The position numbers and the translations under genes were made by a program. Shown here one piece after another: positions 58,601 to 60,187 of a stretch of 64,000 bases of DNA. The notes below the pieces were generated by a model, which saw only the letters and a program-made list of their open reading frames with translations, was not told the origin of the DNA and made no database searches. The stretch's first letter is position 1. Each line of letters opens with the position of its first letter. Source of the DNA: an uncultured archaeon (lineage in GTDB: Archaea; Asgardarchaeota; Lokiarchaeia; Sigyniarchaeales; SOKP01); NCBI GenBank assembly GCA_964486045.1, contig CAZALK010000021.1, forward strand, positions 8,684-72,683, in the 5' to 3' direction.

Positions 58601-60187
58601 AATGTTACTAAAACAATTAACAAATTGGAATTTCCGATGATAGATAAAATGAATTATCAACCAGATTTTATCATTGGTTCAAACACCCTAAACTCTGAAT
58701 TTGACATTTATTTACACGATCATCAAATTCAGCAAAAACCAGTATTCCCTGGTGTAATGGTTCTGGAAACTTTCGCAGAATTCTATAACAATGTATTTGA
58801 AAAACCCATGGCTTCTATTTCAAAAGTTAACTTCCACACTCCCTTAAAAATTCCATTAAACAAGCCAGTTGAAGTTGAACTGAAGTATAATTATTCTAAC
58901 AATGAAATTACTCTTTTATCGAAGACTTATCCTCTTGTTTTGAAAGGAAAACCCCTAATTAAGGAACACTTCAATGCAGAGCTTGGAAAATCAATAAAAA
59001 AAATGAAATGGAAAAAGGAACCTATTTTAGAACCATTAATCCCTCTACTTGATAAAAACGATATATACGAGATTTTCTTCCATGGAAAAAGTTTCCAAGT
59101 GTTAGATGAAATTATTCAACTAGAAAATGGAAAAATAATAGCAAAAGTTGATATTCCAACAACTTCACTAACCAGAAATAGTGAAGGAGATAAATTTCAA
59201 CTCGAACCATTAGCAATAGAAAGTATTTTTCAAACAGCCGCATTGTTTGATGTTATTGTTAATAATCACATATCTCTTCCCTCTAAAATTTCCACTCTTG
59301 AAATATTATCAAACCAAAAACCGAAATACATAGTTGCTAAATTTTTGAAAAAAGATAAAGAACGTTCATACTATAATTCTGTGATCTTGGATGAAAATCA
59401 CGAGATTATTATGAAAGTTTCAAATCTGGAAATTATCCATTCTCCACTTTCATTTGACATATCAGAAAGTCTATCTAATTATTTAGCTACATTAAAAGAA
59501 TATTATCTTCTTAAAAATGGTAAGAACTCTAACATTTTTCACATCCTTCCTATTGAGAAATTAAAACTTTTATATCAAACAGATCCAAAATTTTTAGAAA
59601 CTCATCTAACTGAATATGAAATTGATGCTTCCAAAAGATTTAGAAATGAAAAACGAAAACTCGAATATTTTTCAGGAATTATTACTGCGAAAGAATGTTA
59701 TATAAGACAATCACCTGAAATTCTCTCTTATCACGATATTGAAATTCAAAAGAATGAAAAAGGAAAACCTTTCTATTATTCAAACAATACTAAGCAGAAA
59801 ATCCCAATTAATCTTTCAATTAGCCATTCACATGAATTTTCTGTAGCAATCATGAGTAAAAACCAAGTTGGGATCGATTTAGAGATAATAGAATCACGAT
59901 CTCCTTCTTTCTATAAAGAAGTGTTTACTGAATCTGAGATAGAGTTAATTTCGGAAAATAATAAATTAGGTACTCTATATTTTACTGCTAAAGAAGCCTT
60001 TTCAAAAGCGATTGGGGAAGGTTTTAATGTTAATTTTCGTGATGTTGAATTAAAGTATAATGAAAAGCAGAAGAAATTTTCTTTGATCGCTAAAAAAGAT
60101 CAACCAGAATTCAATAAAAAATTCAAAAAATTAATATTAAAATCTGAATTCACTGAAAAATATGTGATATCTTATTGCGAGATTTAA
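49694..60187 (+). CDS. Type I iterative FAS/PKS-like megasynthase (PUFA-synthase-like): NMO-like barrel, ER, KS, AT, KS, ACP x3, psiKR/KR, DH, PPTase
   Basis: A single uninterrupted frame runs 49682..60187 (3501 codons from TTG). ATG at 49694 is the likelier start, 21 nt after the carboxyltransferase stop. Domain motifs are listed in the separate domain features. Residue numbers follow the 49682 ORF-track translation. Confidence 0.9.
   Translation: [3497 protein letters not shown]
49733..50326 (+). other. Megasynthase domain 1: short NMO/FabK-like TIM-barrel lacking the conserved His
   Basis: About aa 18-215. It has [30 protein letters not shown] (Met148, ATG 50123..50125, sits where the family has GGH), VIQGGFG, and [17 protein letters not shown]. 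Confidence 0.55.
50726..51751 (+). other. Megasynthase domain 2: FMN-type enoyl reductase (NMO / FabK / PfaD-like)
   Basis: About aa 349-690. It has [49 protein letters not shown] (His488, CAT 51143..51145), [18 protein letters not shown] and [12 protein letters not shown]. Confidence 0.75.
51863..53245 (+). other. Megasynthase domain 3: ketosynthase KS1 (Cys-His-His)
   Basis: It has [27 protein letters not shown] (Cys936, TGT 52487..52489), [13 protein letters not shown] (His1070, 52889..52891), [11 protein letters not shown] (His1109, 53006..53008) and [16 protein letters not shown]. Confidence 0.9.
53351..54215 (+). other. Megasynthase domain 4: acyltransferase (malonyl-CoA:ACP transacylase type)
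   Basis: It has [35 protein letters not shown] (Ser1322, AGT 53645..53647), [11 protein letters not shown] and PVRWVD. Confidence 0.9.
54614..56020 (+). other. Megasynthase domain 5: second ketosynthase KS2, divergent but with an intact Cys-His-His
   Basis: It has [32 protein letters not shown] (Cys1858, TGT 55253..55255), [22 protein letters not shown] (His aligned to the CHGT of KS1), [13 protein letters not shown] and [14 protein letters not shown]. Confidence 0.8.
56216..56440 (+). other. Megasynthase domain 6a: ACP repeat 1 (PfaA-type) with Thr at the expected Ser position
   Basis: The sequence is [39 protein letters not shown]. Thr2212 is encoded by ACC at 56315..56317. Confidence 0.8.
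56492..56716 (+). other. Megasynthase domain 6b: ACP repeat 2 with Thr at the expected Ser position
   Basis: The sequence is [39 protein letters not shown]. Thr2304 is encoded by ACT at 56591..56593. Confidence 0.8.
56801..57036 (+). other. Megasynthase domain 6c: ACP repeat 3 with Thr at the expected Ser position
   Basis: The sequence is [39 protein letters not shown]. Thr2407 is encoded by ACA at 56900..56902. Confidence 0.8.
57361..58590 (+). other. Megasynthase domain 7: ketoreductase (structural psiKR sub-domain + catalytic KR)
   Basis: The psiKR part is [11 protein letters not shown]...[34 protein letters not shown]. The catalytic part starts at about 57752 with [23 protein letters not shown] and [23 protein letters not shown] (Tyr2887, TAT 58340..58342). 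Confidence 0.8.
58636..59460 (+). other. Megasynthase domain 8: PKS-type (double hot-dog) dehydratase
   Basis: [20 protein letters not shown] follows the HxxxGxxxxP-type motif with Gln in place of Gly (His3014, CAT 58721..58723). A later [16 protein letters not shown] corresponds to the DxxxQ-like motif, here ExxxQ. Confidence 0.7.
59607..60184 (+). other. Megasynthase domain 9: C-terminal 4'-phosphopantetheinyl transferase
   Basis: It has [68 protein letters not shown] and [17 protein letters not shown]. The last two match the PPTase motifs GIDxE and W/FxxKEAxxKxxG. Confidence 0.8.

What the first reader, a model, noticed from the sequence alone, without database searches (positions are those of the whole stretch)
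59607..60184. PPTase fused in cis to the C-terminus of the megasynthase
The last ~190 residues carry PPTase motifs: [28 protein letters not shown] and [15 protein letters not shown]. A cis-fused PPTase is established for the fungal FAS alpha subunit but is unusual in PUFA-type synthases, where PfaE is a separate protein.

In a lineage that otherwise has no need for holo-ACP synthase, the fusion would make the system autonomous and easy to transfer as one unit. It is also the obvious candidate enzyme for the unusual Thr acceptor site.
Basis: partly seen in the sequence, partly recalled or inferred. Interest (0 to 1): 0.6.

Follow-up and report, generated by a model that had tools for sequence, protein, structure and literature searches.

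The report
Built-in activating enzyme on archaeal lipid megasynthase
The last ~220 residues of a 3,500-residue fatty-acid/polyketide megasynthase in an Asgard archaeon are an intact Sfp-type phosphopantetheinyl transferase; it is the only such enzyme in the genome, and the only carrier domains it could activate sit in the same protein and carry threonine instead of the usual serine.

Summary
Observation confirmed. Window 59534-60184 (+), residues about 3285-3501 of the ORF 49682-60187, is a two-lobed Sfp-type PPTase. Pfam PF01648 scores 75.9 bits against a cut-off of 25. The AlphaFold model (pLDDT 89.9) best matches the Sfp-CoA-PCP complex. The Sfp catalytic residues all have equivalents (H3382, D3399, E3401, E3438, K3442), and these are invariant in all relatives compared.

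The genome is archaeal (5.18 Mb, 99% complete). It holds no other PPTase and no carrier domain besides the three Thr-ACPs of this protein. The same holds in closed Asgard genomes. Within the genus, PPTase and carrier domains are present or absent together (10 genomes with both, 42 with neither).

The fusion itself is not rare. It is present in all the Loki-, Hod- and Heimdallarchaeial homologues recovered, and occurs in a Thermoplasmatales MAG and in several bacterial phyla, including cultured Lujinxingia vulgaris. Acidobacteria and Elusimicrobia ("Type R" clusters) keep the PPTase as a separate downstream gene. In every locus with readable carriers (one mixed Ser/Thr), the closest PPTase relatives accompany Thr-ACPs. 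A more distant fused clade accompanies Ser-ACPs.

I found no active-site residue specific to the Thr group. Thr phosphopantetheinylation is therefore inferred, not shown.

Earlier follow-ups of this scan met fused PPTases of this family on other DNA. Verdict: new variant of a known kind.

The parts
49682..60187 (+). Megasynthase ORF of 3501 aa from the TTG start. The database twin P0002 is 3497 aa, which suggests the true start is the ATG at 49694. Domain order: ER-ER-KS-AT-KS2-ACPx3-KR-DH-PPTase.
59489..59533 (+). Short linker between the DH and PPTase domains. It is the low-confidence stretch (pLDDT below 50) at the start of the modelled piece.
59534..59857 (+). N-terminal lobe of the PPTase (residues about 3285-3392). 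It is AcpS-like, contains KGKPFY (the P1a motif K(G/D)KP) and LSISHSH (P1b', with H3382 equivalent to Sfp H90), and retains an AcpS-style TAKE motif with K3337 invariant. PF22624 matches residues 3348-3389.
59864..60178 (+). C-terminal catalytic lobe of the PPTase (PF01648, residues 3395-3499). GIDLE carries D3399 and E3401 (Sfp D107, E109). FTAKEAFSK carries E3438 and K3442 (Sfp E151, K155).
56189..57061 (+). Three tandem ACP domains, the only carrier domains in the genome. The acceptor position is Thr in each: T2212 (56315-56317), T2304 (56591-56593) and T2407 (56900-56902), each within the motif DLGIDTV. These are the presumed substrates of the PPTase.
48101..49672 (+). Carboxyltransferase subunit of an acyl-CoA carboxylase, immediately upstream (context: malonyl-CoA supply).
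60221..62991 (.). Downstream context: alpha/beta hydrolase (60221-61000 +), biotin carboxyl carrier protein (61014-61490 +) and biotin carboxylase (61501-62991 -). The same order follows the PPTase end in a relative (L032).

Best explanation
The C-terminal ~220 residues are a functional Sfp-type (group II) 4'-phosphopantetheinyl transferase domain. The domain folds as a pseudo-dimer of two ACPS-like lobes. By homology with Sfp, CoA and Mg2+ would bind between the lobes, with Mg2+ held by D3399, E3401 and E3438. E3438 and K3442 would act as in Sfp E151/K155, and H3382 as in Sfp H90.

The domain would transfer phosphopantetheine from CoA to the hydroxyl at the start of helix II of the three tandem ACP domains of the same megasynthase, either in the same chain or in the partner chain of a dimer. 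Here that hydroxyl belongs to threonine (T2212, T2304, T2407). This archaeon has no other PPTase and no other carrier protein, so the domain makes the megasynthase self-priming. Together with the flanking carboxylase, BCCP, biotin ligase and hydrolase genes, it makes the cluster self-sufficient.

Shown: domain identity, fold, catalytic residues, purifying selection, uniqueness in the genome, co-occurrence with Thr-ACPs. Inferred: activity, cis versus trans action, and that Thr really is the acceptor.
For: Domain identity and fold:
- PF01648 75.9 bits and PF22624 27.3 bits; TIGR00556 57.1 bits; the best named Sfp-type model is HetI.
- AlphaFold model pLDDT 89.9, pTM 0.88. The top Foldseek hit is Sfp-CoA-PCP 4mrt_A (E 5.7e-14, TM 0.70/0.72), followed by human AASDHPPT and PptT.
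- The profile aligns to Sfp at E 7.8e-23, placing ISHS, GIDxE and WxxKExxxK on Sfp H90, D107/E109 and E151/K155.

Conservation:
- These residues are invariant in 30 free relatives, in 20 Asgard homologues, and in 36 Thr-associated and 8 Ser-associated domains.
- dN/dS of the PPT segment is 0.15-0.23, similar to the other catalytic domains.

Uniqueness in the genome:
- The only PF01648 or profile match in the 5.18-Mb, 99%-complete genome.
- The only PF00550 matches are the three ACPs of this ORF.
- Closed single-contig Asgard genomes show the same: G135 has one PPTase and five carriers in one 3819-aa frame; G016 has one PPTase and three carriers in one 3519-aa frame.
- In the genus, 10 genomes have both PPTase and carriers and 42 have neither. 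One exception is an assembly gap; the other (G199) is a weak lone carrier hit, not examined.

Link to Thr carriers:
- The nearest PPTase relatives, fused or encoded just downstream, sit with DLGIDT-type carriers in Asgard archaea, Acidobacteria, Elusimicrobia, Myxococcota, Bradymonadales, Riflebacteria and Thermoplasmatales.
- A tree with all Thr-associated PPTases as one clade against the Ser-associated ones is not rejected (p-AU 0.60).
Against: - No biochemical evidence exists for activity or for phosphopantetheinyl-threonine.
- E. coli ACP S36T is reported as not modifiable (PMC3340395), so Thr is not a generic PPTase acceptor.
- I found no residue near the active site that separates Thr-associated from Ser-associated PPTases. 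Only two weakly biased surface columns appeared, K3324 and E3404.
- The deep branches of the PPTase tree are unresolved.
- The genome has 7.8% estimated contamination and is a draft of 45 contigs. The closed-genome relatives remove most of this caveat.
- Some Asgard families carry short free PPTases of 150-180 aa that I did not examine.
Confidence: 0.8

Rival explanations
1. The PPTase domain is active only on serine carriers. In this reading the Thr-ACPs are not phosphopantetheinylated by it, so in this genome the domain has no substrate, or modifies something not recognised as a carrier, and the synthase is primed some other way or not at all.
For: E. coli ACP S36T cannot be modified (PMC3340395). 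No Thr-specific active-site change was found in the PPTase. Heimdallarchaeum homologues mix Ser and Thr carriers (S-T-S) in one protein, so Ser carriers could be the real substrates there.
Against: In this genome and in the closed genome G135, every carrier is Thr and no other carrier or PPTase exists. Even so, all domains, including the ACPs and the PPT, are under purifying selection, and the Thr is invariant in more than 60 Asgard ACP domains. A synthase with no holo-carrier would be dead and would not be conserved across phyla.
Confidence: 0.1
2. The domain is a degenerate, purely structural remnant of a PPTase (a pseudo-enzyme) kept for assembly of the megasynthase.
For: The N-terminal lobe has lost the GxD metal motif, as in all Sfp-type enzymes. 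Earlier follow-up notes of this scan describe inactivated domains elsewhere in related scaffolds (unchecked).
Against: Every catalytic and CoA/Mg-binding residue known from Sfp is present and invariant. dN/dS is 0.15-0.23. There is no other enzyme in the genome to prime the ACPs.
Confidence: 0.05
3. The contig is bacterial contamination of the archaeal bin, so the claim that this is the only PPTase in an archaeon is an artefact.
For: Estimated contamination is 7.8%. The family is widespread in bacteria.
Against: Homologues with 60-87% identity in the PPT domain lie on long Asgard contigs, including a 4.36-Mb contig (a single-contig genome, G135) of Ca. Harpocratesius repetitus and single-contig Heimdallarchaeum genomes. 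GC content of the gene (0.31-0.36) matches the window. The PPT domains of Loki-type and Heimdall-type archaea form their own clades.
Confidence: 0.02

Closest known systems
Sfp of Bacillus subtilis (PDB 1qr0, 4mrt), the archetype of group II PPTases; also human AASDHPPT and M. tuberculosis PptT
   Same: Two-lobed pseudo-dimer fold (TM 0.70-0.72 to 4mrt_A). Equivalents of H90, D107, E109, E151 and K155 are all present. A W/F-T-x-K-E-A motif is present.
   Different: About 18% sequence identity. It is fused to the C-terminus of its client synthase rather than free. Its N-lobe keeps an AcpS-like KR..E..G...AKE helix. Its only available clients carry Thr, whereas all Sfp clients known to me carry Ser.
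PPTase gene downstream of 'Type R' secondary lipid synthases (Shulse and Allen 2011, PMC3098273): Koribacter, Solibacter, Elusimicrobium, Roseiflexus
   Same: Same synthase core: KS-MAT-second KS/CLF-ACP(3-6)-KR. Same PPTase motif class: P1a K(G/D)KP plus P1b' hShxH, with no P0. In the Type R-like loci I fetched (Acidobacteria, Elusimicrobia) the ACPs also read DLGIDT. One Type R cluster also has an acetyl-CoA carboxylase gene inside it.
   Different: Here the PPTase is fused in frame after the DH domain, two ER barrels are fused at the N-terminus, and the host is an archaeon without FAS II, AcpS or a free ACP.
Integrated C-terminal PPTase of enediyne iterative PKSs (SgcE, CalE8; Murugan and Liang 2008, Zhang et al. 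2008, both cited in PMC3107222)
   Same: An iterative type I synthase ending in KR-DH-PPTase that primes its own ACP.
   Different: Enediyne PKSs have one ACP with an H(M/L)SS(I/L) serine site, no ER and no second KS. They did not appear among the closest PPTase relatives in my searches.
Pseudoalteromonas sp. DS-12 pfaC with an incorporated PPTase (reported in PMC3098273), and the actinomycete/Acidobacteriaceae KS-AT-...-PPTase proteins found here (L051, L057, L058, L063, L064, L070)
   Same: A PPTase fused into a subunit of a Pfa-like synthase.
   Different: The fusion is to a different subunit. In the actinomycete/Acidobacteriaceae proteins the carriers are Ser type (DLSIDSIK) and the PPT domains form a separate, well-supported clade; DS-12 itself was not examined here.
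C-terminal PPT domain of fungal FAS alpha subunit (for example 2uv8, 2was)
   Same: A PPTase at the C-terminus of a fatty-acid megasynthase, giving self-activation.
   Different: The fungal domain is a single AcpS-like lobe. It matches only the C-lobe of the profile, at E about 1e-10 to 1e-13. The domain here is a complete two-lobed Sfp type.

Membership tests
Sfp-type (group II) PPTase | Significant match to PF01648 (ACPS) plus the Sfp-type N-terminal lobe (PF22624) | tested here: met
   PF01648 75.9 bits (cut-off 25); PF22624 27.3 bits (cut-off 27) on the excised piece; TIGR00556 57.1 bits (cut-off 45.35).
Sfp-type (group II) PPTase | About 220-240 residues forming two ACPS-like lobes (pseudo-dimer) | tested here: met
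   The N-lobe hits AcpS structures and the C-lobe is PF01648. The AlphaFold model (pLDDT 89.9) aligns over 207 columns with Sfp 4mrt_A.
Sfp-type (group II) PPTase | Mg2+ ligands equivalent to Sfp D107, E109 and E151, plus K155 and H90 | tested here: met
   D3399, E3401, E3438, K3442 and H3382; invariant.
Sfp-type (group II) PPTase | Transfers phosphopantetheine from CoA to a carrier protein | not testable with these tools
   Needs an in vitro assay or mass spectrometry.
AcpS-type (group I) PPTase | A single lobe of about 120 residues acting as a trimer | tested here: not met
   Two lobes in one chain.
Fungal FAS-type integrated PPT (group III) | A single AcpS-like lobe at the C-terminus of FAS alpha | tested here: not met
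   The C-terminal position is shared, but fungal FAS chains match only profile positions about 107-189 (C-lobe), at E 1e-10 to 1e-13.
PfaE-type PUFA PPTase (motifs of Sugihara 2008 as used in PMC3098273) | P0 motif hRxhLS and P1b motif (F/S)NxSH | tested here: not met
   No hRxhLS is present in residues 3270-3360, and the P1b position reads LSISH, which is P1b' hShxH. The P1a motif K(G/D)KP is present (KGKP, 3360-3363). This is the pattern reported for Types M-T, including R.
Type R secondary lipid synthase cluster | One pfaA homologue (KS-MAT-CLF-ACP(3-6)-KR) with an associated PPTase | tested here: met
   KS-AT-KS2-ACP3-KR-DH plus PPTase. Differences: the PPTase and two ER domains are fused in. 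Type R-like bacterial loci have the same core and Thr-ACPs with a free PPTase.
Enediyne PKS (PKSE) with integrated PPTase | KS-AT-ACP-KR-DH-PPTase with one ACP carrying an HMSSI-type Ser site | tested here: not met
   Only the KR-DH-PPTase tail is shared. This protein has ER-ER at the N-terminus, a second KS and three DLGIDT ACPs.

The most novel reading that the evidence does not exclude
This PPTase clade would be a natural threonine-accepting (or dual Ser/Thr) phosphopantetheinyl transferase, which would make O-phosphopantetheinyl-threonine a real and so far undescribed cofactor linkage. In Asgard archaea it would be the sole PPTase, self-priming an all-in-one fatty-acid-type synthase, so that relatives of the eukaryotic ancestor carry a portable, self-sufficient route to acyl chains. 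The Heimdallarchaeum version (Ser-Thr-Ser carriers, one PPTase, closed genome) would then show that one enzyme serves both residues.
Probability: 0.55. Interest if true: 0.8.

Novelty: new variant of a known kind. Interest (0 to 1): 0.58.

Why it matters
Integrated PPTases are known (fungal FAS, enediyne PKSs), so the fusion alone is not new. What makes this one worth testing is its setting.

In these archaeal genomes it is the only PPTase, and its only possible clients carry threonine at the attachment site, a residue that E. coli AcpS cannot use on ACP. If the domain is active, which its conservation implies, it must attach phosphopantetheine to threonine. That would extend the chemistry of a universal cofactor linkage and supply a new orthogonal pair of enzyme and tag.

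It also defines the minimal self-sufficient unit (carboxylase subunits, biotin ligase, synthase with built-in PPTase, hydrolase) by which Asgard archaea could make acyl chains. This bears on the lipid-divide question in eukaryogenesis.

The patchy distribution (11 of 54 genomes in the genus) and the presence of fused forms in Thermoplasmatales and many bacterial phyla fit a module that moves as a unit.

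Tried and rejected
- A 30-sequence PPTase alignment was too diverse for the search for related loci. A 5-sequence alignment worked.
- I looked for residues conserved in Thr-associated PPTases but absent from Ser-associated ones. Only K3324 and E3404 showed weak bias, and nothing in the active site did. I therefore do not claim a specificity determinant.
- The 150-aa PPTase "remnant" in a same-genus chromosome (L032/G188) looked like a relic of gene loss. It actually abuts a 300-N assembly gap, so I rejected it as evidence of decay.
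- The PPTase tree does not resolve deep relations (30 of 65 inner branches open). I make no claim about the donor or direction of transfer.
- Literature searches for Asgard plus PKS, PPTase or PUFA synthase found no description of this domain. One paper reports a PUFA-like PKS cluster in a Heimdallarchaeota MAG without mentioning a PPTase (PMC7472256). A search for threonine as a phosphopantetheine site found nothing.

Full report
**What is there.** The finding lies at the 3' end of one uninterrupted ORF, window 49682-60187 (+), 3501 aa from a TTG. The database twin is 3497 aa, so the ATG at 49694 is the likelier start. Pfam gives the order NMO/ER x2, KS, AT, a second KS-like domain, three PP-binding domains, KR, PKS-type DH and then, at the very end, AASDHPPT_N (3348-3389) and ACPS/PF01648 (3395-3499). 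On the excised piece PF01648 scores 75.9 bits (cut-off 25, E 3.2e-21) and PF22624 scores 27.3 bits (cut-off 27). Its coordinates are one base out of frame, and the domain starts about 25 residues earlier than stated.

**What kind of PPTase.**
- The first half of the piece resembles AcpS structures (3hyk, E 1.3e-8). The second half is the PF01648 match. So the domain has the two ACPS-like lobes that define Sfp-type enzymes.
- NCBIfam's best named Sfp-type model is HetI, with weaker AusB, AcpT and EntD matches.
- An AlphaFold model built on 30 sequences has pLDDT 89.9 and pTM 0.88. Its best structural match is the Sfp-CoA-PCP complex 4mrt_A (E 5.7e-14, TM 0.70/0.72), followed by human AASDHPPT and PptT. 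AcpS chains cover only one lobe.
- A profile of the family aligns to Sfp at E 7.8e-23. It puts ISHS on H90, GIDxE on D107/E109 and WxxKExxxK on E151/K155. In this protein these are H3382, D3399, E3401, E3438 and K3442.
- Fungal FAS alpha PPT domains match only the C-lobe. The fungal comparison therefore holds for position, not for type.
- In the motif scheme used by Shulse and Allen (PMC3098273) the domain has P1a (KGKP) and P1b' (LSISH) and lacks P0. That is the pattern of their Types M-T, which include Type R.

**Is it alive?** The catalytic residues are invariant in 20 Asgard homologues, in 30 free relatives, and in 36 Thr-associated plus 8 Ser-associated domains. dN/dS of the PPT segment against five homologues is 0.15-0.23, within the range of the other catalytic domains. 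dS is near saturation, so the values are rough.

**Is it alone?**
- The genome is archaeal (SSU rRNA model RF01959, 1457.6 bits), 5.18 Mb in 45 contigs, 99% complete with 7.8% contamination.
- PF01648 and the two-lobe profile each find only this domain. PF00550 finds only the three ACPs of this ORF.
- MAG incompleteness does not explain this. In the single-contig genome G135 (4.4 Mb) there is one PPTase and five carriers in one 3819-aa frame. In single-contig G016 (3.3 Mb) there is one PPTase and three carriers in one 3519-aa frame.
- Within the genus, 11 of 54 genomes have PF01648 and 11 of 54 have PF00550. Ten genomes have both and 42 have neither. One exception is a PPTase end next to a 300-N scaffold gap.
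- In the phylum, 128 of 400 genomes have a PPTase. It lies mostly in frames of 3200-3800 aa in several families. Two other families have short free forms of 150-180 aa, which I did not follow up.

**How common is the fusion?**
- Close homologues (60-87% identity in the PPT piece) are annotated from Promethearchaeota, Thor- and Hodarchaeota and Lokiarchaeum GC14_75. More distant ones come from Heimdallarchaeota and Ca. Harpocratesius.
- An exhaustive representative search found 3162 relatives at E up to 1e-3. The top of the list is dominated by C-terminal PPT domains in KS-AT-KS2-ACPn-KR-DH-PPT proteins, with or without N-terminal ER.
- In named species genomes, the PPTase is fused in Deltaproteobacteria/Myxococcota, in cultured Lujinxingia vulgaris (ER-KS-AT-ACP3-KS2-KR-DH-PPT, at least 3737 aa), in Riflebacteria and in a Thermoplasmatales MAG.
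- It is a separate gene just downstream of the synthase in Acidobacteria, Elusimicrobia, an actinomycete MAG and a Myxococcia MAG. That is the published Type R layout (PMC3098273).
- On the PPT tree the fused/free state needs at least six changes. Fusion and fission are therefore recurrent.
- Published precedents for an integrated PPTase are the Pseudoalteromonas DS-12 pfaC and the enediyne PKSs (references 27 and 29 in PMC3107222).
- The fusion by itself is thus a new member of a known kind. Earlier follow-ups of this scan also met it on other DNA.

**The threonine link.**
- All ACPs of the 20 Asgard homologues read DLGIDT[VI].
- Every bacterial or archaeal locus whose PPTase is among the nearest relatives, and whose ACPs are on the fetched DNA, also has Thr carriers, whether the PPTase is fused or free.
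- A more distant, well-supported clade of fused PPTases (Amycolatopsis, Allokutzneria, Streptomyces, one Acidobacteriaceae) accompanies DLSIDSIK serine carriers.
- The acceptor state needs three changes on the free tree. A tree holding all Thr-associated domains together is not rejected (p-AU 0.60). That permits, but does not prove, a single split.
- Heimdallarchaeum proteins carry Ser-Thr-Ser carriers with one PPTase in a closed genome. This suggests the enzyme serves both residues.
- E. coli ACP S36T is reported as unmodifiable (PMC3340395). Thr is therefore not a trivially accepted substitute, which sharpens the inference. In this genome a conserved, intact PPTase has only Thr carriers to act on.
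- Against specialisation, I found no active-site residue that separates the two groups.

**Context.** Upstream lie a biotin ligase (-) and a carboxyltransferase. Downstream lie an alpha/beta hydrolase, a BCCP and a biotin carboxylase. The downstream order is conserved in a relative. With the built-in PPTase, the locus contains everything needed to make malonyl-CoA, prime the carriers, elongate and probably release.

**Verdict.** The best explanation is a functional, self-priming Sfp-type PPTase domain (confidence 0.8) whose acceptor is inferred to be threonine (about 0.55-0.6). No paper I could search describes it.

Noticed in passing
P0176/P0181 (Ca. Heimdallarchaeum; genome handle G016, C1:573944-577843): The three tandem carriers alternate Ser, Thr, Ser (DLGIDSI, DLGIDTV, DLGVDSI) in a 3515-3519-aa synthase. 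This synthase holds the only PPTase and the only carriers of a closed 3.3-Mb genome, a natural hint at a dual Ser/Thr PPTase.
   Followed up: partly
L039:2-11212 (Lujinxingia vulgaris TMQ2, cultured Bradymonadales): A bacterial counterpart with a fused C-terminal PPTase and three Thr-ACPs. The ACPs are placed before the second KS (ER-KS-AT-ACP3-KS2-KR-DH-PPT). This is a tractable organism for testing Thr phosphopantetheinylation.
   Followed up: partly
L032:9830-10279 (CP070805.1, same-genus 'chromosome'; handle G188): Only the last 83 residues of the PPTase are present, directly after a run of 300 N. The megasynthase is hidden in a scaffold gap of an assembly labelled as a chromosome. The hydrolase, BCCP and biotin carboxylase follow in the same order as in the window.
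   Followed up: yes
Asgard genome handles of families f31 and f16 (for example G337:C30:3782-4096, G067:C1:2726233-2726556): Many Asgard genomes carry a short free PPTase (open frames of 150-180 aa, PF01648 60-69 bits) instead of the fused form. Their clients are unknown.
   Followed up: no
G203:C21:35713-41185 (same genus): A different arrangement: a 2141-aa protein with two better-scoring carrier domains (54 and 43 bits) and a free PPTase (263-aa open frame) next to it. Possibly an NRPS/PKS-type cluster.
   Followed up: no
window 59681-59701 (residues 3334-3340): The N-terminal, non-catalytic lobe keeps an AcpS-style motif (KR..EY..G.ITAKE), with K3337 invariant across 30 relatives. In Sfp this helix is degenerate. 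The profile scores Bacillus AcpS almost as high as Sfp (82 against 84 bits).
   Followed up: partly
L047:5615-10588, also L043, L052, L055 (Bryobacteraceae and relatives): KS-AT-DH-PPTase proteins of about 1650 aa with no carrier domain detected in the ORF or in the 5 kb upstream. This is another recurrent fused-PPTase layout.
   Followed up: partly
L081:1-7581 (Thermoplasmatales MAG): A fused KS-AT-KS2-ACP2(Thr)-KR-...-PPT in a second archaeal phylum. Its PPT domain groups with deltaproteobacterial and Bradymonadales sequences (support 91, long branch), not with the Asgard clades.
   Followed up: partly
window 49682-49696: The longest ORF starts at a TTG. The database representative of the same protein is 4 residues shorter, so the ATG at 49694 is the probable start.
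   Followed up: partly
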